64,000 nt of DNA from Botryllus schlosseri (Eukaryota): positions 5,706,001-5,770,000 of the forward strand of contig CM119373.1 in NCBI GenBank assembly GCA_051294905.1, given 5' to 3'. The notes beneath the pieces were generated by a model. It did not search any database. It was given only the letters and a program-made list of their open reading frames with translations, and was not told the origin of the DNA. Within the stretch, counting starts at the first letter, position 1; each line of letters starts with the position of its first letter. This document shows, piece after piece, positions 9,383 through 37,307 of the stretch. The translations under genes and the position numbers were made by a program.

Positions 9383-9501
9383 TTACTGCGCAGTAACAGA
9401 ACAACAATACACATGTCCCAGCCAGCTTTTTACACTTCCGTCTGACCGCTCACCCCAACATGGAAGGCCGTACTTAGGTCCGTAAACGATGCATGTTTTC
9501 C
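9383..9501 (-). CDS. Gene B terminal exon (KTCIVYGPKYGLPCWGERSDGSVKSWLGHVYCCSVTAQ*)
   Basis: 119 nt, TTTGTGCAG acceptor, phase 1, ends in TAA; completes the Cys-rich domain with a terminal V-Y-C-C. Confidence 0.75.
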
Positions 9502-12500
9502 CTGCACAAATAATAAAATGGTTAGCATATACTCATTTAAAATCAAATAATCATTCCAACAATATCTGGAATATTTTCCTTCGGTCTTGCGGCGCTGAGA
9601 CTTCTTAGAACTTAGGTGGAATGACAGTTGCACGATAACGAGCGATATTCTTTTTGACAGAGTATTTTCTCGTTAGATCAACATGCACTAAAATGTATAC
9701 TCTAGGTGAGGGGTTCCCAACCTTTGGGTCATGGCATCTAGGTGGCGATGAGCCTTGTTCAGGGGGCCATGCGAATTTGGTTTATTATTAAGGTTTGCAA
9801 CCTTGCTCTAAGTGTTATGTAATGACGTTTTTCTATCATTTAACTTGCTGATCCATACAAGTGATGATACATTCGAGGACAATTAAATGTAGTTGATACA
9901 TTTCATTTGTTTGATGTTATTTTGTTCTCTTCATTCTCTTCATTTTGTAATAATTGATAAATTATTGGCATCAATCAGGTTCTGCTGATGCCCCCGAATT
10001 TAACTCCGACACTTAGTATTCAAGTATGTCTATTCACCGTAGACTATCTATGTTCTCACTAGCCCTCTCTCTCTCTCTCTCTCTTCTCTCACTCTCTCGC
10101 TCTGCCTCCCTTTTTTCTACGAAATAAACGCAGCAGCCCATACGATAATTGCTTGACTTGACAGTTAATTACATCGTTATATCTGAATGTCAACTTGACG
10201 TTGTCCAGCGTTTCCCTAATACTGAGTGAAGCTCCAATGATGGGTTTTAAGTGGTCTGTGTACTGTTTATATTAGAAAATTTGGTATTTATTACTATCGC
10301 ATTTGTATGATATTATTTCAAATCATACGTGACATTCCATTGTTTCATGACTACTATATTATAACTAGGGCCATTTTTATATGACCTTAAAAAATCAATT
10401 ATATGACTTTATTTTTGGGAAAATATGACTTTATATGACTTTATGCAAAAATCGTGTATTTTTACATGTAACCAACGTCACTCATGGAACTGACGAGTAA
10501 AACATGAACAACATAACAGTAATACGCATCCATTTTTATTTTAAACCACTTTTGTAGTAGTTTCATGTAGTGTGGAATGTTGGAGTCTTTAAAGTTACGA
10601 TTTGGACGTAAAAATGACTTTAGTAAGGAAAATGAGCGCTCCACAGACGCTGATGTTGGTTGACACTTTTGCAGTTTTGCATACAGCGCTGGTGAAATGT
10701 CTTGTCTTTGTAGCTCCATAATTTGTTTCACATCGTTTTTGTCCAATCGCTTCTTAATGTAATTTTTGAGCTCAAGCGGGTCTTTTCCGAATTCGAGGGC
10801 ATTTAGATCAGCATGAGCCTCCTTGATAGTGTACGTTACATTTTCAGTATCAAGTTTGAAATATTGTTTTAGTGGAGGCATATTTCTGTTAACTCGTCAA
10901 CTTTGGATCGTTCACTGAATCTTTGACGCTCTTTACAATAACTCCTTCAGCTTCCCATGCGTTGACTATTTCTTTCACTTGTGGAAGTCTCTGAACTTCA
11001 AATGACGTCCCACTTCAGTGCACAGAAGTAAAACAGATTGTGTAGCAACACAATGCAATGTGTGACCTCATAATGCAATCTGTGACCTCGTAGGTCTGCG
11101 ACTGTAATGTTATGTAGGCTAACCTTACAGTTTGTCTTCGTTCAATCAGAAATTGCCTTACTTTATTAGTGCGTAATTGCTTCAATTGGCACTTTTTATT
11201 TAAAGTATACAACAATATGACTTTATAACTCAAATATGACCTAACCAGGAGAATATGACTTTATATGACTTTATAACTTTTTTAATATACCCCATATGGA
11301 TGCCGTTTTTGCGTTAAAATTGTTTTCACGACTTACTGATGCATAGAAAAAAATATGACTTTAATGACTTTAAATGGCCCTAATTATAACACTGACAAAA
11401 AAACGCTGTTACGATATAATTTTTATGTATTGTGATCGGAGTGGCGCAGCGTTTAATGACGGTTTATCATACCACCATTCAGTCCATTCTAGGTTTTGCA
11501 TAACTTTAAGTGAGAAACTAGCAATTTTTACGTGCAAATACTTGGTCGAGATCAAATATACAAATGTAATATTTGGAGCGCGGCGAATTGTGTTTACGGG
11601 CCCCAGGCAACTTACTGCAGATGCATAGGCTAATATAGATTTGCATAAAACGGCCTTTGAAGAAATAGCCAGTTGGAAAGGGTGACTTCATATCAAATTG
11701 CACTGAATGATAAACATAAGTTTCACGATGATTCATACTGTTACCTGATGCGTTTCCTATCTGTATCCACTCGTTGTTGTGATCTTGAATAGCTATCCAA
11801 TGGTCACCTTCTAGCACTCCATATACAGGCGTGCCTAAGTTACATACTTCTATGGCTGAACAAAGTCTTTTGCCTTGATTACCGCATTGAGACTTGGAAC
11901 TGCCATACGTAGCAGTCCCGCCAATGTTTACATGAAGTATCGCTGCAAATGATAAGGAATTTCGACATTGAAATTTCTTCAAGCATACAAATAAGGTGTC
12001 TTGTTCGCTGAAATCATATGCTGAGCATCGTGAGTTATTGCCCAGTAGCCCGAAGAGATAAGCTATTGCAGTTGAAATGTAACTAATGCCTAAATCTGTC
12101 TCAGACTGGATCGAAATGTTTTGAACTAACGCATACATATACTGGCGCTGTGCGAAGTCCAACCAAAACACTATAAAATCGATGATGTTTAATTGTACCC
12201 ACAAAACAAGTCCGACGCTCATATGAACGAGAAGTATACAACGTGGTACTATACATGCATTACTCACATGCTGCAGGCTTAGCGTCTGAATCAACTCCGC
12301 AGCCTTGTTCAATTGATGACTGATTGCGTGGAGAGTGTGAAACCGTTGAGAATGTTTTCATCGTAGAATCTAAAATAATGCCAGCATTAAGCCTCCTATC
12401 TCGAAGGTATTTGCTTTCCAGTTTCCCGCCCCTATATGTTACGCGGTGTTGTCATGATCCATGGATTCGCAGAAGCCAGCAATATTTAATATTTTTATAA

Positions 12501-15500
12501 GCTTATCCTTATTTCTATATACTTCCATGGAAAATCAATTTTATTATACGATTGAAATATCCAATATTATTCGTTATTCTTATATGTGGTGGAGTGATGA
12601 CCTGCGTGTGGATTCGATATTTATTGAGGAAGCAGTCTCTGTCCTGATTGGGTAAACTTAAATCGCTTGTTTTGACTAATGCTATGGTATGTTACATTCT
12701 ACCCCAAGTTAATCACTTCTGAGTTGGAGCCTTCGCAGTAGCGCGGCTACCTGTCAACAACCTTTTAGGACTTTTAGGATATTAATCTGACTTTGCTGCA
12801 GTCACTAGAATATGTTGTTAAACATTACCAAATATCAAAATTTATCCTATATCTTCTCCAACAATCGTTTAATGACCTAACTACTAAGTTTGCAACTTTT
12901 TGGCACGATTTGCGCGATTATGCTATATTAGTGGTTTAAGCGTGGTCGATATCGCCCCCCCAGCGGCCGATTTTGGGAAACAAGTGGGCGCAAATACCGA
13001 TATAGATGACTGGGGAGTGATAGGGGGCAAACATCCTAGAAAATTTTAGATATTAGTAATGAACACGGTCAAAAAATGTACATGAAGACGGCTTGTTCTG
13101 CATATGACGTGAAAAAAGGTTAACTCGACGTAAAGTTGACGCAGAAAACGGTTTTCTGAGCACCTACTACCTCGGAAAATGTACTTTTTTTGTAAATTCT
13201 CCAGGGATTAGAGTTAGATGAATAAACTTCTCGATTAATTTCCTCTTTTTTAAATTCGAAAATACGGAAGGGGAAAAAGCTGGGAAGCACTGTGCTAGAT
13301 GGCCATGTTTCCAGTCCAGTGTGAAGACTGAAGATTGATCCGGAGAGATATCATTTTATAGAATACTTACAATCGTTGTTATGGCTGGTAGCTGTTGACA
13401 CTGTAGCTTCTATTAAATGCGTTAAGTTGATAGTCACGTTAATTGTAATCATTCTTGATATCAAACTTTGTTGTTACATAGCATGTCAAAATTATGACTA
13501 AATTATTTGGTAATATATATATATTGCACAGCACGCAAGGTTTAATATTGTATTGGACACTATAGTTTTGCGTGTTTGGTATAACAAGCTTCAGCGATAG
13601 CAGCAGTTTTGAACGCCTATAGTTTATTATAGTTTAGTTCATATTTTCTGTATTTCGGATATCATATGATGAAATAAGTAAGTACCAGACATTAGACACG
13701 ACTGCCGATAAAATCAGGAGAGTTCGAATCTGAGCTCATGAATATTTTAAAACATGTGAATTGGAACGACATATTTGTACAGGATACTGGAGACGAGATG
13801 AATTACTACATGCGTGTACCAATGATTGAATAATATGATATACGCAACTTTGAATAAGGAGGCCTATTCCGAATCTCTGTACTTGGTAGAATCACTAAGA
13901 GGCACTGTAATTCGGAAGCATGGTGTTTACTTGGACATAACACGCATTTGTAATGGCAAATAGAAAATAAATAGCAATTTTAGGAAATTCTACTATAGAC
14001 AAATGTTAAATTATGCTGTAGGCCTATACTCACCAATGATATGTTGAGCAGCAGTGACCGAAGACGTAACGTTCATAAACTCAGCTGTACTGGATTCAGT
14101 GTATGATAACGTCAACGGCCCTTGGTGGTAGTAAAATATTAATGAACTTGAATTGATACAATTTTTCATATGTGGATATCAGCGTCGCACACATCATGCC
14201 AAAATTACCCATTCCACTTCGTATATTTGCCCACATAATTGAGGTCAATTGTAATAATTATGAGTTCTCCGCGTTTGATATAGTAAATTTTCACGATAAT
14301 ATCCATTTCGCGTCTAATTCTACGGCGTATATACTGTCGCAAGGACTAAATACTTTGAGGTCTACTTACCAATATAAGATTTGGCAGCATTTGTCAATGT
14401 CATAACTTGTACCGAATCGATTGTGGAGGCATCACTGTCGATTCCTTTTGATGGCGCTGAACATTATTAAATTGCTATGATTGCTAGTACCAAACTATTT
14501 CTGCACCTAATGTCAGAATGATTAACGATATAGAACTATATGGACAGGGACCATGGTAGATACGGTTAGGCACTGTAAGGCTTGTTAGACACATAGTAAG
14601 TTCTGAAAATTGTACGAAGTATGCATTTACTTGTATGGTGATTTTTGTAGCGGAAGGAAATGTGTACGTAATATATTTACGAAGATCATCTTCATCAACT
14701 GTGGTGACTGTGATTACGCCTATTGAATTCGATTTAGTTGATATCACGCATGCCAGTTTAGTTTTTATATTCATATCAACGCTATGAGTATATACCATGT
14801 TAGAATATGATTCATTGAGTTGATTATACTTAACTATAATCTATGTAATGAATGTGACAGTATTAATATAATTTATTACATGGATCAGGAGCCGTTTGTA
14901 TGAAGCATGTTAAAATATATATATGTATGTCAAAATATTACGAACTGGCGTGCCAAACAGTGTGATAACTTCAATATTATTCGAAATTATAATGAATTGC
15001 CTGTCTTGATATACCTAGTCTCGACTCATATAACTTGGACAATACACATATTGACTCGACTCGCATTCCTCTGAAGGGGGGGGGGGTGCGAAGCTGCGGT
15101 CAACAGAAAGCTTTTCTCCCGCTTCTCGCGATTTACGTCCATTTGTTATTACTCCGTCTATAGTCCGGATTTCGTATTTTAGAATTATCTCATAACCTAT
15201 CAATAGCTTCCATACCATGAAATTACCAGTCGGGATTGCTAGCATTCTGGTTGCATTTTGTGATATGACGATAAGTTGGGCGCGAAATTTTTCACTTTCG
15301 TGAAGGGGGACGTGTCTATAAAAGTTTGAGAACCACTGCATTACATGTTTGAGTTTCACACACAGAACACGAGCGTGAGCTCCAAGTTTACGCGATCCTG
15401 AGATATAACCCTAATGATGGAGTCCACGAGGTAGAATTAAGTCAGTGATATAAAACTCCTTGTGCTTTGTTGAATGCGTCTTAGGCGTAGTGTCAATTAT

Positions 15501-18500
15501 GTCTTGACTTCTATAGTGAATTTTGATGCGTGTGTAAAGCAGAGTTGGATCAATTACATTATTTCAGTTCAATTACAATTACAATTACAATTACTTTCAT
15601 GCATGTTACAATTACATTACAATTACAATTACTCCATGCTAAAAATATCAAATTACAATTGCTGCTGTTGAACATGTAATTGAATAATCATAAATTCAAC
15701 CGTGCTCCTTGACAACCGTAGCGTCGTATTTAACAACAATTCAAGTCTAGTTCAGATTGTGTAGTAATAAATGCGTTTATGTGCGTACATAGTATGATAT
15801 GTAAGATGTCATTGTGACGTAATATAAGCGTGTTTTGTATGCTCGGTAATTATGGCTCACGTAATTGGAAAAGTAAAATGTTATTTACCTAATTTCCTAT
15901 GGGTTAGGATTAAGGATAGGGTGCAGTATGTCGTTGAAAAAGTATTATAATATATGCACGTGTTGGATTTGCGTATAGTATATAATTAAAGAAATAATAT
16001 TATTTTTATCGAGGGACGTAGGAATTAGGATGAGGAGTAAAAACAAAACCGTGCTCTGTCAGATAAGACGTTATATAATATCCAGTGGTCTGGTTAGTTA
16101 GCCTGACGAAGTAACGATGCAGCATCGTGATCTGAAATCGTATTGTAGATTGCCAACCCACGGATAGATGCGCAAGATGTGAGTCACGGATGAATGCACC
16201 GACAAACGTACTGCAGAGCCGGCTAAAAGCAGCAAACTTTGTAGTCCTAGAGCTGGCGATCCATGCGTCCAAATTTGATGCATCTGGTCTTAATCGTAAG
16301 CTATTGATGTACTAATTCCGAAAATACAAAATAAAATCTCGTCAGGGCAATGTAACTGCTCCAAAATAGCCGTTTAAGGCCGACTGTTCTGAAAAGTGAG
16401 AGCGCTGCAGCAGCATGACCACAACAATACCAATTACGCCCAGCGATTGTTCAGAACAATGCCGATTCCCAGACTTTCACGACTATTTTGGGATGGCACC
16501 ATTGCCTGGAAATATACTTTTATTGCGGAATCAGTGCGACACTAGCTTTCGATTAGGACCATACATATCAAATTTCGACGCTTGGATCGCCAGCTATGGG
16601 ACTATCAATTCTGCTGCTTTTAGCCGGCTCAGCAGTTCGCTTCTCGGCGTATTCAATCATGAGTCACGTGTTGCGAATCCATCCGTTGGTTAGTAATCTA
16701 AAAATTGTATACAATGGCAGCCGAGGCCAGCATAGCGGTGAAAATTAAAAAAAATTCGCCCGCAAGGGCACAGTCAAGGGCTTCCGCGAATGAATCCACC
16801 AAATTCCTTGTCGACATTTAAAGAGAATGCATTATAAGTCAATTATTTTATGTTGTGCTTATCAGGTTTCAATAGCAATTTAATGTAATTGAAATTGTAA
16901 TTGATCAAAATTTTTGTCAAATTACAATTACAATTACAATTACACAAAATAAAAATGCTTCAATTACAATTACATTACAATTACATTGAAAAATGTAATT
17001 AATTACATTCAATTACAAATTACAATTGATCCAACTCTGGTGTAAAGTCCTGCAATATCGACTTACCAGTATCTGGTTCCGCTGTAGCTGTCAATGTCGT
17101 AACTTGTACCGAGTCGGTTGAGAGGGTATCCCCATGGAGTACCGTGGAAGAACCTGTATATCAATTTAATGGTAATAGTTGCTAAAATGAAAGTTTTGCC
17201 TACAGCTCGATTTTAGAATTGTCCAAGATATATATCAATTTGAACAGGGATCATAGTGGTCAAGGTTGTAAGCGTGTAGGGTTGCATGTTGGCAATGGTC
17301 AGTTCTAGCAATAGGTTACTATGAATTATGGTTTTATTTTTACGATGAACTTAGAAAACGAAAGAAACGTCTACGCAAGCTCTTTACGAATATCAAGCTC
17401 ACCAGCAGTGGTGAATGTGGTAGCTTCTATCGAATCAGACGTGGTGGAATCGCTAGGCGTTACCGTCGATATCTCTGAAAATCAATTTGGTTGTTTTATT
17501 CGTATCAAGACTAAGAGAATTCCTATCTTGTAAATCATGCATTAAATTTAATATATATGTTTATAATCTGTATAATGAATAAATACTTTGCTGATCATTA
17601 ATCTCGCGAGTTCAGTATACTAAACTCGCGAGATATTGCCAATTTTGCGTTGGCCACAATATTCAATTTTACTATGCAATGTATTCTACGTGTTCTACTT
17701 ACCAGCATCCGGTTCCCCAGCACTGGTAGATGTGGTAACGTCAATCGAATCAATTGTGGTGGAATCACTATATGATTCTGTCGATAAATCTGAAATGTTA
17801 ATCTTGAATATACGTTACTGTTGATAAAAAGTTTGGGATATATCGGCATTTACCAATTTGTTACATACATATTGATTTATTAATTTCCTTCGACGTGATA
17901 TTTGCAAACTATGCAAGCTCAATTGCATGGATATTGAAAATACAATAAACAATAGGTTCGAGATGATACGAAAATGGTGTAAAAGTGGGCCTATATATCA
18001 GGGCTGTGGAGTCGGAGTCGGAGTCGGTGGAGTCGGAGTCGGGGTAATTTTCGCTTGATGGAGTCGGAGTCGGAGTCGGAGTCGTGAAAACTATAATAGC
18101 TGGAGTCGGAGTCGGAGTCGGAGTCGGTGGGAAAATACTGACTGGAGTCGGAGTCGGAGTTTGTGAGAATGACCCTGACTTCGACTCCGACTCCGACTCC
18201 AACTTCTCTATCATGAAAACATTTGCTATCAAAGAATTTTCCATAGAATTTTTATGTACCACCAATCACTGTATTAATAACCAATTAACCATACAGATCA
18301 GGTGCGGCCAGCCCGTGGCACGCAGGCCAAATTTGGCACAGGAGAAGGTTATGTTTGGCCTGCGAGGTAATTCTCGAAATTATATTTGACATCAGGTACA
18401 ATTGCAAGGCCAACCAAAATTTGATTAGCATGACCGCGAAATTTGATGATGACTAAAACAACAGTTCTGACGCATTGACGTATCCAGGGGCCAGCCACAT

Positions 18501-21500: not shown

Positions 21501-23618
21501 TGTGGTCATAATGGCTATCCTCATTACTCGTCGGTTATGGGCTAATAATTGTTGATGCGGCAGTGAAACGTTGTCCGTTCTCTGAGGTATAATGCATAAT
21601 TGTTTTTTGTAGGAAAATATACCCAGTAGAGTAGGTGATTCTGTGTAACATTACCTGATATCTTAGCTTCACCACTTTTTCGCTCCACAAGTTTCTGCAA
21701 GCTTGTCACAACGCTTTCAAGAGATCTACCGGACTGTAACTTTGAAATCAATAATTATAAATACCAAGGGAACGTCATTACTTCCGCCTATTACCGGTGA
21801 CACTATTTTAGAACGGCAATACATTCTGTTAAGATTAAAATAGTCAATGTTTGTCGGGAACGCAGCGAATCGAAAGAGGTGTGATACGTAAACTTGAACT
21901 GAGTAAGCGTGAGTGCCCTAATTTAAGGAACGCTATACTTGTATCTGTAATGTTTTCCTTCATGCCTATGAATTCCTAACAAATCCCTTCATGTCCCCCA
22001 TACACACCTCGCATTTTCCAAGCGTAATCCAACGGCCATTGACGTAGCTCCGACTGCAGTATCCGTCTGAACGTACAAGAAGTATAGCGTCTCTAATAAT
22101 ATGAATAACATTTTCAACATTCGCGCTCGAGTCAAATCTCGAACGAAGTGATAGGTTGTAGTATATAATTTGGATAACACGATAAGTAACTGCACATTGA
22201 TTCGACTACAATATGCAATTATATGCAGGCCGATCTCTGAACAGGGAACACGTACATCTTCCACAAAACAAGCCCTAAATAACATCTGGAGCAACCCAGA
22301 TTCGTTCACTGCTTCGCTGACTTGGTTCGCTACGTGTCACGCTAGTCGACTTTTCTATCCATACCGCTTGGACCAGGATACCTAAACAAGCGGGTCGAGG
22401 ACATTTTATGCGGCCAGCCTCGAAAGCAAGTACGGCAACAATTTTATTTAAATATTTACAAATGTGTTTTTTTCGTGCCGGGCCTCAATTGCTGCATAGT
22501 AAATCGCATTTACACCATGAGTGTGGAATGTCATTCTGTAAGTTCGTGTCAAATAAGATTTTCTCGCCGACTTGGAAATACATTAAACATCCCATTATGC
22601 TGCGGTCTGCGACGTCATAAAATGCTAGATAATTTTTCCTCGAAGATATTCGAGTTTGATAACCCTGTCGGATAATTTGTCTTATATAACTTATCGTGTC
22701 ATAATTTGGGTTATGGATCACACATGGTCGATTTCAGGAAAGGCACCCATATGGATAGACTTATAGATCATCAGCGAAATACTTCTGCGTCTCTATTCAA
22801 ATGGTTATATATTAGAAAAGCCAACCCAATACTACTACGACGGTTTTCGCAACCGAACGGCTTACATTCACATTTTCAGATTGTAAATTATTTTCAAATA
22901 GTTCTTGATTACAATTACATCATTTCTACAAGTGTAAATGTCATATATACTAACCTGGCAATGAAACCCATACTCTATATATGAAAATATCGTTTCAAGA
23001 ATTGCTCTAATTAGTTGCAACTATGGGATCAACTCTACGTTAGACGCTATGAGGGATGTTGGATTCTTGAAATGCGGTACCGATAACCTTTCATTTCAAT
23101 AGGCGTACTTCCAGTCGTTTTGACTCGTCTTAATGATCGCTACTTTACCTACCTTTTGATTGATGAGTAGATAGCAATTAATTAATGTTATTTGTGCTCA
23201 TGAATTAGCGATGATTTCTGCGAACACCTCCAACCACTAGCCGTGTATGTAATGTATACAGAGGATGTCATTTACGCAATGTCTATTATGCGAATTGATT
23301 GTTCGTGAGTGGAACTTCGAGTTCATTAACTGTTAATTTATGATAATATCTGCAGATAATACATTCTGCAACCTCATGTTGGCACCATCTCCAATCTTAA
23401 TCAAGGCGATATGATGTAAAAAGAACACAGTTCAACTTCAAGTAAATGCTGTAGCGCCACTTTTTGTGGCGAGGCGACTCCGAATAACATTATAAAGACA
23501 CGAAAACAGAAATACTTACAGTGCTCTACTTACTAGATGAGCCGGATATAGTCATGATACGGGCATTCACTATCACTGTCGCTGTTACTGTTGCGAAGAG
23601 CAGCGGGTACAGGGCCAT
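9383..23618 (-). CDS. Gene B: 11-exon secreted modular protein (signal peptide, Cys-motif exon, helical neck, Ser/Thr-rich mucin-like stalk, C-type-lectin-fold-like head), 353 aa
   Basis: Hand-built model. Exons (minus strand): 23618-23534, 22066-22008, 21733-21655, 17789-17703, 17474-17403, 17153-17067, 14456-14370, 14120-14034, 12369-12268, 11942-11745, 9501-9383. Every intron is GT-AG, all phases are compatible, and the total is 1062 nt with a single terminal TAA. Exons 2-3 have clear paralogues in gene A. Confidence 0.75.
10064..10098. repeat. (CT)n microsatellite
   Basis: Imperfect CT run. Confidence 0.8.
10366..11382 (-). mobile_element. Internally deleted hAT transposon in the last intron of gene B
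   Basis: TIR TAGGGCCATTT / AAATGGCCCTA; perfect TSD ATTATAAC; ATATGACTTT subterminal repeats; carries a transposase C-terminal fragment. Confidence 0.9.
10540..10960 (-). pseudogene. hAT transposase C-terminal fragment
   Basis: ORF 10462..10881 contains PTSASVERSFSLLKSFLRPNRNF, a hAT dimerisation-domain-type ERSFS motif. Confidence 0.8.
11745..11942 (-). CDS. Gene B head domain, first exon (ILHVNIGGTATYGSSKSQCGNQGKRLCSAIEVCNLGTPVYGVLEGDHWIAIQDHNNEWIQIGNAS), C-type-lectin-fold-like
   Basis: 198 nt, phase 1-1, TTTGCAG acceptor and GTAAC donor. The C-x3-G-x-RLCS-x2-E pattern and Trp spacing resemble lectin-fold helix 1/2. Lies inside ORF 11518..12312. Confidence 0.75.
12268..12369 (-). CDS. 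Gene B linker exon (STMKTFSTVSHSPRNQSSIEQGCGVDSDAKPAA)
   Basis: 102 nt, phase 1-1, TTTTAG acceptor and GTGAGT donor, open frame. Confidence 0.65.
12929..13292. mobile_element. Degenerate hAT MITE
   Basis: Decayed TIRs TAGTGGTTT / GGGAAGCACTG; TSD TGCTATAT/TGCTAGAT. Confidence 0.65.
14034..14120 (-). CDS. Gene B stalk exon (PLTLSYTESSTAEFMNVTSSVTAAQHII)
   Basis: 87 nt, phase 1-1, weaker CCAAG acceptor and GTGAGT donor. Confidence 0.65.
14370..14456 (-). CDS. Gene B stalk exon (PSKGIDSDASTIDSVQVMTLTNAAKSYI)
   Basis: 87 nt, phase 1-1, TTCAG acceptor and GTAAGT donor; shares DSVQVxTLT with 17067-17153. Confidence 0.75.
15075..15338 (-). mobile_element. Truncated hAT MITE, same family as 54670-54944
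   Basis: Ends in TTTGAGAACCACTG; its reverse complement matches 54670-54780 (AAAAATTTCGCG..TTATCGTCATATCACAAAATGCAAC). Confidence 0.65.
15540..17039. mobile_element. Non-autonomous hAT element with (CAATTA)n subterminal arrays
   Basis: TIR CAGAGTTGGATCAATT; perfect TSD GTGTAAAG. Confidence 0.92.
17067..17153 (-). CDS. Gene B Ser/Thr-rich stalk exon (SSTVLHGDTLSTDSVQVTTLTATAEPDT)
   Basis: 87 nt, phase 1-1, TACAG acceptor and GTAAGT donor. Confidence 0.8.
17403..17474 (-). CDS. Gene B Ser/Thr-rich stalk exon (ISTVTPSDSTTSDSIEATTFTTA)
   Basis: 72 nt, phase 1-1, TTTCAG acceptor and GTGAG donor; similar to 28942-29013. Confidence 0.8.
17703..17789 (-). CDS. Gene B Ser/Thr-rich stalk exon (LSTESYSDSTTIDSIDVTTSTSAGEPDA)
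   Basis: 87 nt, phase 1-1, TTTCAG acceptor and GTAAGT donor. Confidence 0.8.
17999..20109. mobile_element. Non-autonomous hAT element with (GGAGTC)n subterminal arrays
   Basis: TIR CAGGGCTGTGGAGTCGG; perfect TSD CTATATAT; contains nested MITE 18299-19163. Confidence 0.92.
18299..19163. mobile_element. Nested hAT (Charlie-like) MITE
   Basis: CAGGTGCGGCCAG / TTGCCCACCCCTG ends; TSD ATACAGAT/ATATAGAT. Confidence 0.8.
20558..20906. mobile_element. hAT MITE with GTCCTC subterminal motifs
   Basis: TIR TAGGGTTACCATA; perfect TSD CATAACAT. Confidence 0.9.
21655..21733 (-). CDS. Gene B exon 3, helical/coiled-coil-like neck (SGRSLESVVTSLQKLVERKSGEAKIS)
   Basis: 79 nt, TACAG acceptor and GTAATG donor, phase 0 to 1; paralogous to 30936-31014. 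Confidence 0.8.
22008..22066 (-). CDS. Gene B exon 2 (GYCSRSYVNGRWITLGKCE)
   Basis: 59 nt, TTCAG acceptor and GT donor, phase 1 to 0; near-identical peptide to 37249-37307. Confidence 0.85.
23534..23618 (-). CDS. Gene B exon 1, signal-peptide-like (MALYPLLFATVTATVIVNARIMTISGSS)
   Basis: ATG, a hydrophobic stretch, and a phase-1 GTAAGT donor compatible with the next exon. Confidence 0.6.
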
Positions 23619-23740
23619 CCTGATGATCTCGTACGCTCAACACTACTGTTTCGTTACAACTCATTTTCGGCGAAATACTGGGAATCAAGGAAGTTGATCG
23701 TTGAGTCAACACAGCGAAGGGTTTGCTGACTGACGTATCC

Positions 23741-24603: not shown

Positions 24604-25213
24604 CAGGGGTCGCCAACTCAAAACGGCACGCGGGTAACTTTTCAAGTTTCGCGGAGGCCGCGGGCCGCAAGAATGCAAAATCGAGATTAAATATGCCACA
24701 CCGTTCAACAATCGCGTTATTAAAACTTAACGTTAGAATATCGTTGTGCTTTTCAACCTGGGCGACGGGCATAGTTAGTAGTTACCGCAAAGGGAATAAT
24801 ATTATACTAAAGAAATACAAATACAACAAAAAGTAACATGATCATCAATTTTATTCCTAATTGTGTGCCACCTATACGATATCTGACAACGCTTTTCCGT
24901 GATTAAGGAATCGTCATCGAGGCTAGCAAGACAGGGCTCTAGCTGCAAGACTATCTCGCAATGCAATCTTGTGAAGAAGCCCAAAGTCGCTTTAAAAGTT
25001 TTTCGGTCTTGGCAGTATCTGGGCCATTGCACTTCAAGGCCATAAGCGTATTCATATCAGATGATTCTTTCTCGATGGAATGCTGTTGCCATCGCCGAAG
25101 CCGTTTCAGCCTGTGAGGTTCAATGATGTTCGGCACAAGGCAATAGCTTTTTGAACAACAACAATATTTTAAAACTAAAATCAGATCGCGGGCCGCGTGT
25201 TGGTGATCCCCTG
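24604..25213. mobile_element. hAT (Charlie/SPIN-like) MITE
   Basis: CAGGGGTCGCCAAC / GTTGGTGATCCCCTG ends and GCGGGCCGC subterminal motifs; TSD decayed. Confidence 0.75.
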
Positions 25214-26711
25214 CCCTAGATGCAATCAAAGTACATTACGTTATATAATATATATATCCATGACTTATCCTATCCATGATAATATTATATAGATAGGACC
25301 GGCCCATTTTCTAATTTTGTGTGTATGAATTGGCAACGATTATGTGATGTGGGTAATTCTAGGCTTTCCTATTCTTCAGCCCGCGCTATTTTTCCACATT
25401 TCGGGAGCCAAATGCCAAAACCGCTAAAAATGAAAAAAAATGATAAAATAGGGCATTTGAAAATATGGATATTTATGAAAGATTTTAAGAAAAATGTTAA
25501 TAAGAATTTGCAGGAATTTGTATAAAGCGACAAAACACGTGTGTGAAGTAGAATTCTATCAAAGGGGTCCACGGAAGGTAAATGAAAAGGCCAAGAAGTC
25601 TAGTGAATAAATCTGGATTGACGACCAATCTGTGGATTGAGCAATCCAACAATTAGGAAATAGATGATATCCAGCGATTAGGAAGTAGATAATAGCTGCA
25701 CGCCAAAGTAGTAATCAGGATGTTTGGAATCGGTGCTAGCTGGCGCAGATTTTAAGCCGCGATTATTAAGTATTTTGCTGTGGTCAATGCTCATGCATTT
25801 TATTACATCATGTAGCCGCCAGGCGCGGCCCTGACTGCATTTACCTCAATGTGCATTTTGCTGAATTCCATTCCCATTTAACTGGCAATTGAAAACTGTG
25901 TGCATGTTCATTGTTAAATAACTTATTGATGGTGCCTGGTTTTGCAGTAGGGACATAGTTTTATCAATGAACAGACATGGTGCAAAAGGCCTCCAAATCT
26001 ATACGTACCATACACACATATATACGTTCAATCCTTTCCTAGTTTTTCCTTGCCGGGTGGATAATTTTTCATATTATAAATATTGATTATTATTAATGTT
26101 ATTAAAGTTACACATGATTTGTTACAATTGGTTGGGTAATGAAGGCTGCGATCCAAATGTGTCAGAAACCCTTTTGAATCGTTAGCATTGGTAGCTTAGC
26201 AAAATTGTCCCATGCTCAACCGTCGCTTTTCATTGCGCCGCATGCACAAACATAGGACAACGGGCTTGAGGTGAGGTGGTATTGCATGACTTTATTGTAT
26301 ACACAGAAAATATGTTACACGCGACGAATCTCGTGTATTGTCTTCGATTTCGTGCCCCATGACGTCACGACTCTTTCATTGTAACGCAACAGTTAACGGA
26401 TATCCTCGTATGGCTCTTTTGATGAAGGTTCCCTACCCCTGACATAATAGAAGTCGAGATTCATGGAGATCCGCTACGCCAATTATAATATAACTGGGCT
26501 TTCACAAACATTTCGTAAGCTATAGAAAGTTAGGCTTCGTAGCTGAAACAAATGCTGATCACATACCATTTTGAGTCCCTTCTTCTCCCGTTAACAGCAG
26601 AACAAAATTACTCAACACAACTTCAGGCCGTATTACATATATAAATAAAAGTCCTAAGTTGTCATAAATAGGACTTAACGTTTTTACCGTAAATTCAACA
26701 TGTGCTGCGAT

Positions 26712-27361
26712 TCATTTGATCGATGTGGGACATGTGATATTCCAAAGAGCTGACACACTTCCTTTGATCAACGAATTTCGCGCAATAAAATTAATAATAG
26801 AATCGCTCTCGTAACTGCACCCGCCTGATTTAAATAAATCATCAGTTTCTTGTTCATTAAGTGCTTTGTTCCAAAGTTGAAAATCTTTCATTTCGCCGAC
26901 GAATACATGATCGCCAATAATAGCAGATCCACTTATTTTAGGTTCTTGCAAATTCCCTAAAATCAATGTTCCATCGCCTGCAATAGGTTTGGTGATCTGC
27001 CTCGTCCCTGTAGAGCTTAACGAGCCGTTGATGAAGTACTGCAATGCTTCTCCTGACATAACAATGCATACATAGGTCCATTGTCGAATTCTGAGTGGAG
27101 TGGACGAATACATTGAAGATGTTGTTTCTTCTGTGATGAGAACATGTATTTGGTACTGACGGAGATCTATTTGAAGAGTTTCGCAATCATTTGATTCTCG
27201 TGTACAGTAGCTGACAACGGCTCGTATTTCTGAATTGTCCATTTCTTCTGGTCGCAACCAGACGCATACCGTGAAATTCTGCAATTCCGGAACGTTACCA
27301 CTGTATTGAACGTAATCAGTGTGTTGCGTACTTGGGAAATTGAAATGCGTTGATTTACATA
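26712..27361 (-). CDS. Pentraxin (PTX / LamG-like concanavalin fold) domain, terminal exon of gene A
   Basis: Pentraxin-type motifs: FNFP, LQNFTVCVWLR, VVSY, WTYVCIV (the HxCxxW-equivalent position is diverged), YFING, GTLILG, FVGEMKDFQLWNKAL. TTGCATTTCAG acceptor at 27362-27364; 650 nt = 2 + 216 codons, ending in TGA. Confidence 0.9.
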
Positions 27362-30300
27362 CTGAAATGCAAGAGAGGAAATTACTCATAGATGATTTGA
27401 AAATCATGGGAATGGGTACTGCTTTATTACAGTTTGCGACCACGTGGGTCAGGAGTGCTCATCCTAGTATGCTATTTTGCTGTGTGCTGGCCTAAGGGAC
27501 AGTTAGTAAATTCGCACGGTATAATCAGTTCCTCCAAATAACTCCCGACACGGAAAACATTTTAAACTGATATCATTTACTTTGCTACTCAATCATCAAG
27601 TCTTTCGGCGGTAGTATAACCAAGCATTGGGAATTTTAATGGCAATGTTAGTAATTTATATAATGAAATTGTCACTTCCGAGAAGGTTCATATCTCTCGG
27701 ATGAACATGACCACATTGTACCTTTCAAATCTGCATAATACAGATGTAGAGCAATATTTATTCTTCAGCCACCAAGTCTATTAACGGAATTAAGATCCAT
27801 CGAATCCGCTAACATCGTTCTGATTTACGTAACTCTTTGGTGATGTCGTGGCTATACATAATGTTCTGTAATTTACTGAGTAATCCAGCGCTGGTATTGA
27901 CTATGGAAAACAACAATCCTGTCGAAAATGGGTTTTACGCATTTTTACAATTTATCAGGCCAGCCCGCCAGACGATTTCATCCCGCCAGCGAGACAATTC
28001 TCAGTAGATTAAAAAATGAGGGATTATTTGAAGAAAGAATTTTTTCTAAAAATCTAAGCATTTGTTAGACACTTGCTGAATACTATAAGCATTTTTGAAT
28101 CTACTCAGCATATTTCTAACAAATGCTTAGATTTTTAGTAAAAAATACTTCGAATAAATCCTCAAGACAGTTTATCAAGTTTGTTCATTGTTCATAGGCC
28201 ACATTACAACCCTCTACAGCGCTATTAGGAACAAGTCGATGACATTGACACCCAATTCTGAGAAGGCATAAACGTGCACCCATTGAGTTAAAATTGTTAT
28301 TGACAAATGGACTGAAAACTAGATAACCATAGACGCGAAAACGCCAATGCGAAACCGGTATATGCAGGATACATAGGGAATATAATATGTCCTTAGAAGT
28401 ACAAATCAAATATATGCGGTCGCACTGCTGTATCATTTCTGACTCAAAAGGTCCCCGGCCTCCAGAGAATCCCGAATCTTGATTTAATAGTATATAACGG
28501 TACTCAAATAGCCAGTCACCGTATATCTTTAGCCAATTCGGCTGTTAGCAAATAAAGCTGTTGCTAGAAATAAACCTCTATGGTTCTTAATACAATGCAA
28601 TATGCTAATATAGGTTTGATTATAATGTATTCAATGAAAAACGAGGACATCGATTTCGAGATAACATTTTGGACCGGTCCGCGAGTGATCTGAAGGTTTG
28701 AAACCAGCCCGCGACGAAAGTTGTTAGGTGGTTTCTGGCTTGGAAGTCATTTCTGACGTCGCAAGCTAATTTTCGTTTCGTTTCGTTTAGTTTACGACAC
28801 CATGATGCAGCAAATGTTATCATATTGATCACCTAGTGAATTCGATCTTAGAAAGCGAACTTCTGAATTGCTCGCATATCGAACAAGGACGCGAATCCCC
28901 ATCTCTATCGTATGAGGCCTACAAATCATGATTAGACTTACCATCGGATGTCGAGGTCGTCAATTCCGTTGAATGAATTGAGCTGGAATCGCTACTGTAG
29001 ACCGTCGATAACTCTGGAATGTCAATTTCCGTCATGGGGCAACTGTGAGTCCTTAGGATATCGATACATTAAATCAATCTCCAATAAATCAAATCAATGT
29101 GAAGTATAGTCATTAGGGCTGTTCAAAAAACCTTTTTACCAAATCTCACTCGCCTAGTGACTAAATCGTCAGGTTGTCCAAGAAAACGATGCACACCAAA
29201 TTTGAGTCAATTCCAACCAGTCAAGGCCGTGCAATCTTGAATTGAAATTTTTAATTTATTAATAATAATTAAAAAAAATTCTCAAATTTTTCTGTCAACC
29301 CCATGAAATTGTTGAGCTGTCTTAAAAGACGATGCAAAACAAATTTGAGTCAATTCCGACTTGTAGAAGCGGAGTTATTCACGTTTTTCGTTGATAATTG
29401 TCGGATTATCCTTGATCCGGGGATTATCAACGAAAAACTCAAATAGTTCCGCTTCTACTAGTCGGAATTGACTCAAATATGTTTTGCATCGTCTTTGAAG
29501 ACAGCTCAACAATTCCATGGGGTTGACAGGAAAATTTGAGAATTTTTTTTTTTAATTTTTATTATTAAATTAAAAATTTCAATTCAAGATTGCACAGCCT
29601 TTACTGGTTGGAATTGAGTCAAATTTGATGTGCATTGTTTTCTTGGACAACCTGACGATTTTGTCATCAGCCGAGTGAGATTTGGAAAAAAAATTTTTTT
29701 TGAACAACCCTAATAGTCATGAATGAAACAAGGTTACTGATTTTGCCGCGATCTTCGGAATAACGAAAATAGCTTTTTTAAGATACGAACATAATCTCGT
29801 TTTCGACTATTTGCGGACTTTTCCGGAAGCCCTTATTAGGGTGGTCCTTATAAAACGAATTTTGGAAAGTTGTTGCTCTGAGCCTGCCAAAATGTTCCTT
29901 TGGGATAAAAAACACCCTTTGTGAAATATTATTGATATTCATTAATGTTTAGAGGAGGCTCAATGGATCCGAAATTCTACCCATTTGCAATATAAAGCAC
30001 GTGTAGTCACTTCTATAGCTGCTCTCTGATCGACGTCTTAAGCCTAGATTCCGTTGCGTAGGTATTAGTTGCTCAAAGACTGGGGTGACATGATGACCAA
30101 TAGCAATTGCCGTTACCAAGTAAGGTCAGCTTCAGGGTATTAGGGAGCTTTTTAGCGTTGTTGATCAGAAACTAGATGTCGACGGACAGTGATTATTGCA
30201 GGCCGATACCGACACCGATCATTGAAACACTTAAACGGGCCGAACAAACAAGCAAACTGAAATCAGATAGAATTCCTGCTGAATTGTGAAAAATCGTTGA

Positions 30301-33300
30301 AATTTAGGCTGTTCAAAATGCAAAACGTGGTAAAGAATTGCAAATCAGTCAAGTAGGGGTAGATTACAATGCGGGAACCACATATTTTCTCTGCATGCTC
30401 ACCAACTGAACTTGTCATCCTGCAAGTGTAAATCTGTGCAATTTCACTGAGGGCAGATGAGGCTGACGGGGTTAAATACTTCCTTTCTACTTTGGCTATC
30501 ATATTGTATTTTGAACTATTGCTCTTCCACAGTGCAAGTGCGTCATCTTTTTTGCCTATTTATTAACGGTTCTGTGAGGTATATGTGTATTCCGTCATCA
30601 ATATCCCTATTGCCCTGCGTGATGTCAGGGATGTCACTGTGTGGTGTGAATCGTAAGCACGACCAGTTCATTGGATCAGACGTTGACTGATTGGCTACTG
30701 CGAAAAAAAAACGAATGAGAAGTGCCGATGTCACGTATCGTCCTTTGCGTCATCGATTTCTTGAGATTGAGAACACGGAGCATTGAATTTCAATTTTGTT
30801 TTGAAATTTTCCTGATTTAAGATATCGCCCACGATACTAGCCTTCGTAGGCCGATATCGATGATCGGAAAAGTTCCATAGTTTGAACTCGATAATCGGCC
30901 AGATTGATAATAATAGTTCGACTTTTAGTATTTACCTGACTGCGCTGCTTCAGCATTTTCGTGTTCCACACGTTTTTTCAAGTCATTCATGATACTTTCA
31001 AGAGATGATTCGTCCTTGAAAAGATAGACCACATTGTTCCAGATCACCTTATCCACGAAAAGGGGTGCATGTTGCCTTCGCGTCTCGAATATTCGACTAG
31101 GACATTGTCCTATCGTATGAGTTCAATGGATCTTCATTTCAATACCATTAGAAATTATTTGAACCTTATTGAAGCCTATCAGTACGCTTGGAACGTAAAA
31201 ACCGTACGACACAAGATTGGAGCACATCGGTGTGATGGTCACATGGAAGATTAAACTAGTCGAACGGATAATATTGGAGTGTTTTTATCATGTTGCAAAG
31301 ATATTTCAACAATTTCTAGGTGAGGTAAGTCACTGAATCCGACGATAGCATCCGCTTTTCCGAATTGGCCATATCTTTAGAAAATTTTATCGGTAAGCCT
31401 ATTCAGAACAAAGACCATGCACTAGGCCATCATACGACAAAATAAATAGAAGTAATATTGACAAAATTGAGACCGGAAGTTTTTCATTGTAGCCCACTGA
31501 TATAATCGATGACTCTATTTTCGTAAGTTGGAACGGGAAGATCAGCTATAATTGCTACAGTCGAATAATTTCAAAAAGGACACGAATGTACACTGTACAG
31601 GTTCATTATACGCATATGATTCCTTGAATAATAAGGATCAGAGCAGTGTTTCTTAACCCGTACCCCATTTAGCTGTCCTTAAACAATATATAGAGTTATA
31701 TGTGTGTTGATAAGTTACTCGATGAATGCGAAACATTGAAAAAGTCATGTAATTGCAACAATATCTATAACATATGAACAATGAGTTCGTCAGTCAATTT
31801 ACTATGACTTTGAGCTGCTTCTTGTCCCTTATCATGATCGTGTTGATATGAGGTTTGGCGATCGATGTCTAGTAGCTTCCGCATCCATCAATACGCTGCA
31901 CTATGATATCATAGTTAGAGGTTGTCAATACTTTCATGCAGGTCCGTAACTATCGCACCCCAAACCCCCAATGGGGGCCCGAGATCGAAGTAGGCCCAAA
32001 ATTATTTCATGAATAAACATAGAGTAATATTTTGGAAATTTATGCAACATTAAGAAAAAATTCGCGCCGCGCGCGAATTAATATTGCCAAATATATTTAT
32101 TATTGGGTACCCTTCCCCAACAAGAATACGCATAATTTATAGAAATGGGCACTTCGTCGTCGGCCATTACTGCACCATGACGGATCAGCACATAATGCAG
32201 TTATAGGCCATGTAACATGCGACTCGGATAAGTGTGCCCGAACGATCAGCAGCGAGAAGACCTTAGCCGAACAGGAAGGCTCTTGTGCTGACATATATGT
32301 TTGATTGCCCAATGTCCATAGGCGCCTAAATGACTGACGCCAATTGTTCCCGTCCTGGCGATCTGAACCCCACAGGACAAATGCCATCCCGCAGGGAATG
32401 ATTATTTGCAAGTAAAGAAATACCATTGTGAAATAGTGTGCGTCCTTCATTTCAGTACGCTTTGGCGATTTCAATATCTTTTGACATAGCAGATATAGTA
32501 GGGTTACCGCGCGTCCTCTTTCAAGGGGATTCGTCCTCTGTTTTTACTTTTTTGAAAATATCCTCGGGGGACGCCCAAACAGTGGCGTAGCAGCCACTTG
32601 GCGGTTCTGGCTCTGCGCCAGGGGCGGCAGGCTCCAAGGGGGCGGCAAAATGAGGCAGCACAGTGAGAGAGAGCTATGGTATTCTTTTTCGCCTACACCA
32701 CGGAGATGCTTTGACGACGGTGATGCGATACGGAATTTATAGTAAGGTCATCTAGTCTGCACCCCCCTTTTTATCTCCTCAGTGATGTCTGAGCGCCTAG
32801 CGGAATAACCGCGGATACCAGTTTTCGAGTCTTTGGTCTGACCCGGCCAGGGATCGAACCCACGACCTACCCATCAAGAAGCCGGACGCATCACCATTAC
32901 ACTATCTCGTCCGGCACAGTGTACACAGCCGGATAAGAAAAGCGTAATTGGTAGTCATATAGCTGGCGTCCCGTGAGCTAAAATTTAATCAAACAGGTCT
33001 CAATCGAAAGCTAGTGTCGCGCTGATTCCTGAAACACGAATTAATATGATAACATAGCGATGGAACCACTCCGAAATAGCCGTCAAGGCCGATTGTTCGG
33101 AGAGTTCGCAGAAAATGGAGAATGCCTGGCAAACAATCAGAAGATCCTGGCCTCAGTGTTGTTGAAGAAGTTAGACGATGCATGTTTCAAGCTTTGGACA
33201 GATTTAAACTTGCAGCTGAAACTAGGTTTACCGACATGCTCCACTTAAATGATATGTTTTGATTTTTGAATTCCCACGCGCTACAGCAAAGTGAAAGTCA

Positions 33301-36300: not shown

Positions 36301-37307
36301 GCAGTTTTGTGGTGTTTTAAAATTATGAAAATATTGATTCGAGTTTTTACAGAGAAAATACGGTGCCCACGACGAATCCCATGTAATGAGATCGAATTAG
36401 TACTACCACGACGTCACGAATTTTCAATTGTGACACAGCAATTGACTGATATGTATGTCTTTTTGGGAGTTCAAATGAAAAATATAGGGCTAACATGGCT
36501 CTTAAGCCGTAAAAGGTTATAGGCGTGCAGGACCACAATTTGGGGGCCTGACGGGTTTCGTTTCGGTCTTGCGCAGTGCCTTATTGCAGCGAACTGGTTG
36601 AGAACCACTGGATCAAAGTATGCTATCCATTGACAAATCTACGTTAAATCTTTCTTGAGTAATTGTCACATTTATGTTATCTTCTTCTATTTCAAGAAGT
36701 TTCGATATATATAGGTACTTCTACGCTATCTAGTCTACCTTAGTCGTCACACTGACAACATTGACCGTCTCTGATCATATAAGAGAGCGAGAGAGATATG
36801 ATATTCTTTTTCGCCTGCACCATCGACATGCTCTGACGACGGAGTTGCGATACGGCCCCATGAGGTCATCTAGTCTGCCCCCCGTTTTTTTCTCCTCCGT
36901 GCTATCAGTGATTGCTGAGCGCCTAGCAGGATAGCTGCGAATACCAATTTTCGAGTCTTTGGTATGACCCGGCCGGGGATCGAACCCACGACCTACCGCT
37001 CGAGAAGCCGGACGCATAACCATTACACAATCTCGCATCACCACATCTTTCAATACTAATACTAAATTTACTTGCTGCGTATTCATCATATATAGGTTAA
37101 GCCTAAATAGCGTATAATTTCACACTACATGTCATAACCCGTGGTTTAACGATTCGAACCCCAAGAGGTACATTTTTTGCCGGTTAAGGAAATCTTGATT
37201 AACCACTGACATGGGTATCTTATGAATCATGTACCATCTTTCATTCACCTCGCAATTTCCAGTAGAGATCCATCGTCCATTGACGTAGCTTCGACTGCAG
37301 GTTTGGC
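26712..37307 (-). CDS. Gene A (paralogue of gene B): Cys-motif exon, neck, one Ser/Thr exon, pentraxin/LamG-like domain; 5' end uncertain
   Basis: Exons 37307-37249, 31014-30936, 29013-28942 and 27361-26712 are all GT-AG and phase-compatible. Adding candidate exons 59143-59083 and 58505-58485 gives 942 nt (313 aa). Confidence 0.75.
28018..28163. repeat. Imperfect inverted repeat (~62-bp arms), probable MITE relic
   Basis: CTAAAAATCTAAGCATTTGTTAGA mirrored by TCTAACAAATGCTTAGATTTTTAG. Confidence 0.75.
28942..29013 (-). CDS. Gene A Ser/Thr-rich exon (LSTVYSSDSSSIHSTELTTSTSD)
   Basis: 72 nt, phase 1-1, TTCCAG acceptor and GTAAGT donor; homologous to the gene B stalk exons. Confidence 0.8.
29114..29712. 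mobile_element. Palindromic (foldback) hATm-type MITE, relative of 1774-2391
   Basis: ~295-bp mirrored arms; TAGGGCTGTTCA / TGAACAACCCTA termini; perfect TSD ATAGTCAT. Confidence 0.92.
30936..31014 (-). CDS. Gene A neck exon (DESSLESIMNDLKKRVEHENAEAAQS)
   Basis: 79 nt, phase 0 to 1; same length and SLES..L.K.VE pattern as 21655-21733. Confidence 0.8.
32666..32915 (-). mobile_element. tRNA-derived SINE
   Basis: A box (TAGTGTAATGG) and B box (GGTTCGATCCC), central ACCAAAGACTCGAAAA..GG..TA motif, (CT)n tail, ACAGTG direct repeat on the flanks; second copy at 36782-37040. Confidence 0.85.
33630..33830 (+). pseudogene. hAT C-terminal dimerisation domain fragment
   Basis: CLKIYLTIGVSITSC.RSFSKLKLLKSYLRSTMNDDRLSALSILSIEKD...FEDIIADFA. 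Confidence 0.85.
36782..37040 (-). mobile_element. tRNA-derived SINE (second copy)
   Basis: Collinear with 32666-32915; GGTTCGATCCCCGGCCGGGTCATACCAAAGACT. Confidence 0.85.
37249..37307 (-). CDS. Gene A Cys-motif exon (QTCSRSYVNGRWISTGNCE)
   Basis: 59 nt, CTTTCAG acceptor and GTGAAT donor; paralogous to 22008-22066. Confidence 0.85.

What the first reader, a model, noticed from the sequence alone, without database searches (positions are those of the whole stretch)
9383..37307. Tandem paralogues share an N-terminal module but carry different head domains (pentraxin vs lectin-fold-like)
Seen in sequence: two adjacent minus-strand genes share exons of identical size and phase. These are the 59-nt CSRSYVNGRWI-x2-G-x-CE exon, the 79-nt SLES..L.K.VE neck exon and homologous Ser/Thr exons. 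Gene A then ends in a pentraxin exon, whereas gene B ends in an unrelated two-exon Cys-rich domain. Every junction after the neck is phase 1, so the heads are interchangeable. Established knowledge: collectins, ficolins and long pentraxins use an N-terminal Cys/coiled-coil oligomerisation region plus a C-terminal recognition domain. Inference: this is a collagen-free, exon-shuffled family of secreted pattern-recognition or mucus proteins with a constant scaffold and swappable heads. The ORF track does not show it.
Basis: partly seen in the sequence, partly recalled or inferred. Interest (0 to 1): 0.75.

Follow-up and report, generated by a model that had tools for sequence, protein, structure and literature searches.

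The report
Movable hairpin-helix cassette on sea-squirt lectins
Two neighbouring genes of a probable sea squirt carry the same short two-cysteine-plus-helix piece in front of unrelated end domains; the piece sits before at least nine kinds of binding domain across the genome and likely serves as a collagen-free assembly or docking part that evolution has moved between secreted immune-type proteins.

Summary
The 59-nt Cys exon and 79-nt helix exon precede a pentraxin exon in gene A and a DUF7495 head in gene B. The Cys exon occurs at about 147 places in this probable tunicate genome. Of 107 loci read, the downstream head was fibrinogen-type in 70, C-type lectin 11, pentraxin 6, F5/8 3, DUF7495 3, intelectin-type 2, EGF+lectin, VWA and AbfB 1 each. 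Cassette relationships do not follow head type: B's closest leader belongs to a C-type lectin gene, A's to a VWA gene.

Refinement: gene A looks like a plain pentraxin gene that took the cassette into an intron, since its two closest pentraxin paralogues lack it. Phase-1 joints are not universal: fibrinogen-type genes use phase 0.

RNA confirms four of B's introns but no joint into either head; one run covers only B's leader. A's chain has no RNA support. Oligomerisation, an immune role and a lectin fold for DUF7495 are inferred. This scan found the same cassette earlier on other DNA of this genome; nine literature searches found no description.

The parts
59083..59143 (-). Gene A: probable signal-peptide exon (20 codons, phase-1 donor), of the type used by two cassette-less pentraxin paralogues
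   Evidence: link to 37307 inferred, no RNA
38605..38937 (-). Last intron stretch upstream of the cassette that is collinear with the cassette-less paralogue on C161 (upper bound of the replaced segment)
   Evidence: blastn 76.6% over 359 nt
37249..37307 (-). Gene A: 59-nt Cys-hairpin exon (phase 1 to 0)
30936..31014 (-). Gene A: 79-nt amphipathic helix (neck) exon (phase 0 to 1)
28942..29013 (-). Gene A: 72-nt Ser/Thr exon (phase 1-1), homologous to B's stalk exons
27690..27960 (-). Intron stretch where collinearity with cassette-less pentraxin paralogues resumes (lower bound of the replaced segment); no sign that it is an exon
26712..27361 (-). Gene A: terminal pentraxin exon with stop
   Evidence: Pfam PF00354/PF13385; faint RNA depth in 1 of 4 runs
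23534..23618 (-). Gene B: coding part of signal-peptide exon (phase-1 donor)
   Evidence: RNA joint 22066/23534 in 3 of 4 runs
22008..22066 (-). Gene B: 59-nt Cys-hairpin exon
   Evidence: both flanking joints seen in RNA
21655..21733 (-). Gene B: 79-nt neck exon
   Evidence: RNA joint 21733/22008 in 2 of 4 runs; downstream joint not seen
17703..17789 (-). Gene B: Ser/Thr stalk exon 1 (87 nt, phase 1-1)
   Evidence: RNA joint to 17153 (3 reads, X4)
17403..17474 (-). Gene B: Ser/Thr stalk exon 2 (72 nt); skipped in the 3 reads seen
17067..17153 (-). Gene B: Ser/Thr stalk exon 3 (87 nt)
14370..14456 (-). Gene B: Ser/Thr stalk exon 4 (87 nt)
   Evidence: RNA joint 14119/14369 (4 reads, X4)
14034..14120 (-). 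Gene B: Ser/Thr stalk exon 5 (87 nt)
11745..11942 (-). Gene B: DUF7495 head exon 1 (198 nt, phase 1-1)
   Evidence: PF24325 8.7e-9; 12 reads at 11903 in X4
9383..9501 (-). Gene B: DUF7495 head exon 2 with stop
   Evidence: homologous second exons beside other DUF7495 exons

Best explanation
A two-exon cassette (a Cys-x6-G-x-W-x5-Cys motif predicted to be a disulphide-closed hairpin, then a two-heptad amphipathic helix) stands in front of at least nine unrelated binding domains in this genome, was likely spread by exon shuffling, and likely acts as a collagen-free assembly or docking part of secreted recognition proteins. Shown: the exons, their copy number, the heads beside them, signal exons upstream, and that cassette kinship does not follow head type. 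Inferred: shuffling ran both ways. In B's lineage a whole leader (signal + hairpin + neck) kept its place and the head changed (DUF7495 here, C-type lectin in its closest paralogue). In A the phase 1-1 block hairpin + neck + Ser/Thr exon replaced the stalk exon inside a plain pentraxin gene. Predicted, untested: the helix bundles chains into oligomers that raise avidity, the Ser/Thr exons form a glycosylated spacer, and the invariant hairpin binds a shared partner such as a MASP-type protease.
For: 138 hits plus 9 more by eye. Heads at 107 loci read: FBG 70, CTL 11, PTX 6, F5/8 3, DUF7495 3, intelectin-type 2, EGF+CTL 1, VWA 1, AbfB 1, unassigned Cys exon 1, none found 8. Head on the cassette's strand in 67 of 80 loci, on the other strand in 0 of 80. 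Neck exon at 79 of 88 module hits, some duplicates; hydrophobic columns 5, 8, 12, 16. Third codon positions vary most (0.29 vs 0.19 and 0.12). Tree of 116 columns: B + CTL gene 100/98*, A + VWA gene 98/74, an F5/8 gene inside the FBG clade 96/83*; CTL cassettes as one clade rejected p=1e-6, PTX p=0.03. B and the CTL gene share exons 1-3 at 80-84%. 10 of 10 other DUF7495 loci and 4 of 4 C5 PTX/CTL loci show no cassette within about 9 kb. A's pentraxin is 80% and 63% identical to two cassette-less genes that share A's signal exon and a Thr-rich exon missing from A. Signal-like exons upstream of 10 other cassettes. Collagen-free Halocynthia GBL with an N-terminal coiled coil works with MASP (PMC8605247 passages).
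Against: No RNA joint from stalk to head in B, none at all in A; A's pentraxin bin has depth in 1 of 4 runs only. Run X8 has 14 reads on each of B's first two introns but depth 0 on the stalk bins and 0.2 on the head bin, unexplained. Outside the window, cassette-to-head links rest on adjacency, strand and phase; the AbfB locus lacks a found neck. An earlier scan note reports a nearby lectin gene expressed without its in-frame upstream exons. The tree rests on 116 columns, shows a long-branch warning, and the clade tests were run after a first tree was seen. The helix is only about two heptads. In 46 of 55 FBG genes the neck ends in phase 0, so they are not freely swappable. A's pentraxin departs from the recalled CRP calcium-site motif.
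Confidence: 0.6

Rival explanations
1. The shuffling is real but the cassette is a secretion, folding or sorting aid (a conserved pro-piece, perhaps cut off), not an oligomerising or effector-docking part.
For: It always follows the signal exon directly; signal exons of the A/B clade are themselves conserved; conserved leaders before variable cargo are known from peptide precursors (recalled).
Against: Heptad-patterned helix kept in 79 of 88 hits; long Ser/Thr spacers after it (139 aa, 40% Ser/Thr in B) fit a retained anchor; the same heads are encoded with signal exons and no cassette.
Confidence: 0.2
2. The cassette exons in A are a stranded partial duplicate inside a pentraxin intron and are not spliced in; several apparent head links elsewhere are just neighbouring genes.
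For: A lacks a family-type signal exon in the 30 kb upstream; its closest paralogues have no cassette; no RNA joints for A; cassette-FBG genes are compact and dispersed, as if often copied.
Against: All three exons in A keep canonical splice sites, frame, both Cys and the Trp, with only exon-level likeness left to relatives; the paralogues' own stalk exon is gone from A; 67 vs 0 strand bias; B is spliced through leader and stalk.
Confidence: 0.13
3. The working product is often a short headless peptide (signal + hairpin + helix), for example a cationic hairpin defence peptide, with heads as optional extras.
For: X8 covers only B's first three exons; no head found at 8 of 107 loci; many motifs are basic.
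Against: 99 of 107 loci have a head or Cys exon in frame-compatible position; X8's pattern could come from a divergent allele or library bias.
Confidence: 0.07

Closest known systems
Halocynthia roretzi glucose-binding lectin GBL (Sekine et al. 2001; seen only through passages of PMC8605247 and PMC5465252)
   Same: Ascidian, secreted, no collagen, N-terminal coiled-coil region in front of a C-type lectin domain; works with MASP and C3.
   Different: One protein with one head; whether it carries this hairpin exon could not be checked (sequence and paper not held). Here one cassette precedes nine head types.
Collectins and ficolins (MBL, ficolins; ascidian ficolins of Kenjo et al. 2001, paper not held; 25 MBL and 54 ficolin genes in Styela clava, PMC7540406 passages)
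   Same: Order of parts: signal, Cys-bearing N-terminus, helical neck, CTL or fibrinogen head; expanded in ascidians.
   Different: No Gly-X-Y collagen in A or B; the two Cys are spaced for an internal hairpin (predicted); extra heads (pentraxin, DUF7495, VWA, F5/8, AbfB); most fibrinogen heads lack their first exon.
Long pentraxins (PTX3, neuronal pentraxins; recalled)
   Same: Unrelated N-terminal helical part joined to a one-exon C-terminal pentraxin domain.
   Different: N-terminal part is about 45 aa plus Ser/Thr spacer, has no Pfam or PDB match and is shared with non-pentraxin genes.
DUF7495 (PF24325)
   Same: B's head matches over the curated cut-off; 39 hits in this genome.
   Different: Function unknown; only 3 of the DUF7495 loci examined carry the cassette.

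Membership tests
Collectins / ficolins | Gly-X-Y collagen region | tested here: not met
   None in the 319-aa model of B or the model of A
Collectins / ficolins | C-type lectin or fibrinogen head | tested here: not met
   A ends in pentraxin, B in DUF7495; met by 81 of 107 family loci elsewhere
Collectins / ficolins | Helical neck with heptad pattern | tested here: met
   Hydrophobic columns 5, 8, 12, 16 in 75 necks; sequence pattern only
Collectins / ficolins | Trimers and higher oligomers; MASP binding | not testable with these tools
Long pentraxins | C-terminal pentraxin domain behind an unrelated N-terminal part | tested here: met
   PF00354 5.7e-14; exon chain predicted, not seen in RNA
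Long pentraxins | Pentraxin signature HxCxS/TWxS and calcium-site residues (motif recalled) | tested here: inconclusive
   A reads TYVCIVMS at the signature and LGNLQE at the recalled LGQEQD site: Cys kept, others changed
Long pentraxins | Homology of the N-terminal part to PTX3/NPTX N-domains | tested here: not met
   No Pfam hit for hairpin or neck exons; no PDB hit under E 0.05; short queries limit power
Halocynthia GBL type | Collagen-free coiled-coil N-terminus plus CTL head | tested here: met
   Architecture met by 11 cassette-CTL loci, not by the two window genes
Halocynthia GBL type | Sequence homology of the N-terminus; MASP association | not testable with these tools
   GBL sequence not returned; primary paper not read
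DUF7495 (PF24325) | Profile match over cut-off | tested here: met
   36.1 bits vs 27
C-type-lectin-like fold (for B's head) | Structural match to CTLD/Link fold | tested here: inconclusive
   Model of a paralogous one-exon domain pLDDT 58.6; best Foldseek rows TSG-6 Link module E 0.6; VIA Z at most 2.6; Atlas Lcl_C/InvE_AD at 0.75

The most novel reading that the evidence does not exclude
The hairpin-helix cassette is the ascidian stand-in for collagen: a portable adapter that turns any secreted binding domain into an oligomer able to recruit one shared effector (such as MASP, through the basic residue at the hairpin turn), and it is still being moved into and out of genes, so that a single animal fields over a hundred complement-linked sensors with nine or more recognition folds.
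Probability: 0.25. Interest if true: 0.85.

Novelty: new variant of a known kind. Interest (0 to 1): 0.62.

Why it matters
Vertebrate lectin-pathway sensors couple two head types to collagen. A tunicate family that couples nine head types to one 45-residue collagen-free part would show another way to build a wide innate repertoire in the closest invertebrate relatives of vertebrates, and would make a long-open point testable: how collagen-free ascidian GBL engages MASP. Gene A and its cassette-less paralogues offer a natural with/without pair for that test, and the locus is a clear case of a symmetric exon block entering an existing gene.

Tried and rejected
Whole-frame Pfam scan failed on stops. 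Word-based protein searches: none for the DUF7495 exon, one unnamed pentraxin, three unrelated FBG proteins. Profile search of 1.84 billion representatives gave one true hit, an unnamed read-through of cassette DNA, and five repeat-type chance hits: no named protein, but 19 columns have little power, so the range outside this genome is open. PDB sequence search, phage DNA search and Atlas search of the cassette gave nothing usable. No RNA holder was listed by index. A 63-nt phase 1-1 form of the hairpin exon was considered and rejected: necks start in phase 0. The 72-nt candidate exon 27900-27829 was rejected as conserved intron. Family-type signal exon for A not found in 37310-68000. ORF clustering was too noisy; one script timed out. 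Single-sequence fold of the CTL exon was unusable (pLDDT 37). Structure searches for DUF7495 gave no significant match. Complex prediction of the neck was not available, so there is no verdict. A second read lay gave no data. The pentraxin tree failed on a script error, so A/C161/neighbour order rests on pairwise identities. Look-ups of earlier findings by relatives, words and sequence gave nothing.
Full report
SETTING. The window is G000:C3:5706001-5770000 of a 495-Mb, 219-contig genome. Three GH6 hits point to a tunicate (recalled: among animals GH6-like genes mark tunicates). It lies in a pentraxin-rich stretch of C3, about 4.07-5.85 Mb.

OBSERVATION. Gene B reads, by coordinates: signal exon 23618-23534, hairpin 22066-22008, neck 21733-21655, five Ser/Thr exons (139 aa, 40% Ser/Thr), head 11942-11745 and 9501-9383; 319 aa without a stop. 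The head is Pfam DUF7495. Gene A reads hairpin 37307-37249, neck 31014-30936, Ser/Thr 29013-28942 (homologous to B's stalk exons), pentraxin 27361-26712, also in one frame.

RNA. Four bulk runs, 6-13% of each read, were laid on 8700-28600. Joints seen: 22066/23534 (X8 14 reads, X4 2, X6 1), 21733/22008 (X8 14, X4 1), 17151/17701 (X4 3; skips the 72-nt exon), 14119/14369 (X4 4). X4 has 12 reads at 11903 in the head exon. Not listed (threshold 3 reads): neck to stalk, stalk to head, head to last exon. X8 covers exons 1-3 but has depth 0 in the stalk bins and 0.2 in the head bin; this is unexplained and counts against a fixed leader-head link in that sample. The pentraxin bin has faint depth in X4 only. 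A's other exons were not covered by any lay, so A's chain is a prediction.

THE FAMILY. The 19-aa hairpin exon gave 138 hits; a second, divergent query added 9 by eye. I read 107 of these 147 loci. In the first 80, 73 have AG and GT at the same offsets. A neck exon starting in phase 0 follows at 79 of 88 module hits, a few being duplicates. Both Cys and the Trp are invariant in 85 rows (partly by how rows were picked), Gly10 and Gly16 nearly so; third codon positions vary most; the neck has hydrophobic residues at 5, 8, 12, 16. Heads within 10-20 kb downstream: fibrinogen 70, C-type lectin 11, pentraxin 6, F5/8 3, DUF7495 3, intelectin-type 2, EGF+CTL 1, VWA 1 (5e-8), AbfB 1 (8e-10), an unassigned Cys exon 1, none found 8. 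Pentraxin is under-counted: eight more hits lie 3-24 kb before a pentraxin exon by coordinates alone. Heads lay on the cassette's strand in 67 of 80 loci and on the other strand in 0 of 80. Signal-like exons were found upstream of 10 other cassettes of 19 queries, some with under 1.5 kb available. The neck ends in phase 1 in 18 of 20 non-fibrinogen genes, in phase 0 in 46 of 55 fibrinogen genes, where it runs straight into the second fibrinogen exon.

SHUFFLING. A tree of hairpin + neck DNA (41 rows: all non-FBG rows with a neck, FBG thinned to 20, rows without a neck left out; 116 columns) joins B with a CTL gene at C3:4.61 Mb (100/98*), A with the VWA gene (98/74, unstarred), and nests an F5/8 gene among FBG genes (96/83*). 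One clade of CTL cassettes is rejected (p 1e-6), of pentraxin cassettes weakly (p 0.03); the groups were tested after an earlier tree had been seen, and a long-branch warning stands. B and that CTL gene share exons 1-3 at 80, 80 and 84%, while B's head is 72-77% like DUF7495 exons of other genes, 10 of 10 of which show no cassette within about 9 kb. That is a head exchange behind a kept leader.

GENE A IS DIFFERENT. No family-type signal exon exists in the 30 kb upstream. A signal-like exon at 59143-59083 matches two other places, each upstream of a pentraxin exon: the next gene on C3 (L125) and one on the small contig C161 (L163). Their pentraxins are 63% and 80% identical to A's and 72% to each other; both lack hairpin, neck and A's Ser/Thr exon, and share a Thr-rich exon candidate that A lacks. 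Intron likeness to L163 runs down to 38605 and resumes at about 27900, so about 2.2 kb with that exon corresponds to 10.6 kb with the cassette in A. Since A is closer to L163 than either is to L125, one gain in A is simpler than two losses; this rests on pairwise identities (the tree script failed). The block enters and leaves in phase 1, as symmetric exon shuffling requires (established). C161 may be another haplotype.

MECHANISM. Shown: parts, copy number, heads, phases, discordant kinship, part of B's splicing. Inferred: secretion; shuffling in both directions. Predicted only: a disulphide-closed hairpin with an NG turn, helix-driven oligomers, a glycosylated spacer, a shared partner. The heads are mostly domains known to bind sugars or microbes (established for CTL, fibrinogen, pentraxin, intelectin, F5/8), hence an immune or barrier role is the best guess. 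A conserved Lys in collagen binds MASP in MBL (recalled); the hairpin turn has Lys or Arg in 70 of 85 rows, a lead, not evidence. DUF7495's fold stayed open.

KNOWN SYSTEMS. Closest in working principle is Halocynthia GBL: no collagen, N-terminal coiled coil, acts with MASP (PMC8605247, passages; PMC5465252, passages). Styela clava has 25 MBL and 54 ficolin genes (PMC7540406, passages). PMC3269628 passages list ascidian lectins without this part. Kenjo 2001 was not held; Sekine 2001 was seen only as cited. The window genes fail the collagen test and are not collectins or ficolins. Searches that found no description of the cassette or of DUF7495; subscription papers and supplements were not seen and may bear on this. 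No named protein carries it.

EARLIER SCAN NOTES. One note describes the same cassette 202 kb upstream with the same closest system; I had reached this reading before the look-up and it is no independent support. Others cover stalked pentraxins, ficolin-like genes and EGF-lectin genes of this genome; one warns that in-frame neighbours were not joined in RNA.

VERDICT. Real, extensive and apparently undescribed in the literature searched; a new variant of the modular secreted-lectin design. Shuffling about 0.85, assembly or docking role in immunity about 0.6-0.7 given that; interest 0.62.

Noticed in passing
61 FBG loci among L011-L090: Most cassette-fibrinogen genes lack the first fibrinogen exon (Pfam positions 3-45): the neck exon ends in phase 0 and the next exon begins VFQRR, within 700 nt of the hairpin in 48 of 58; only 1 of 61 has the first exon within 10 kb. 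The cassette may stand in for that subdomain. The genes are compact and scattered over all large contigs.
   Followed up: partly
window 21655-23618: Run X8 shows B's three leader exons spliced (14 reads a joint) with next to no depth on stalk or head: short isoform, divergent allele or another downstream partner.
   Followed up: partly
window 17403-17474: This 72-nt Ser/Thr exon is skipped in the 3 reads that span it, so stalk length may vary by splicing.
   Followed up: partly
L163/L164 (C161:4500-23821): Small contig with two pentraxin genes 80% and 73% identical to genes of the C3 cluster; may be a divergent haplotype lacking the cassette.
   Followed up: partly
L018:1-5614 and L094:8368-9999: Long ORFs (623, 560, 243, 246, 297 aa), some envelope-protein-like by eye with only weak Pfam rows, next to an IS1595-type transposase (2.5e-11), downstream of a cassette exon on C9; looks like an inserted virus-like element.
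   Followed up: partly
L014:1-5970 and L048:1-5200: A shared large mobile insert with ORFs over 1100 and 560 aa inside two unrelated cassette genes.
   Followed up: no
L136/L157 and L137 (C7:24.72 and 24.89 Mb): Cassette genes with intelectin-type heads (phmmer to intelectin-1, 9e-7).
   Followed up: partly
L027:1051-2794: FBG-clade cassette with a 380-aa Pro/Thr repeat stalk followed by a Cys-rich exon with no Pfam match.
   Followed up: partly
window 40935-48411, 18286-19990/48421-50092, 50407-51636, 10465-10896: Repeated transposon-like stretches (84% and 78% copies, inverted 531-nt repeat) fill the introns of A and B.
   Followed up: no
C3:25.0-25.2 Mb, C13:4.09-4.20 Mb, C9:8.3-8.6 Mb: Clusters of DUF7495 exons, often two per gene, 39 hits in all; no paper holds the term.
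   Followed up: partly
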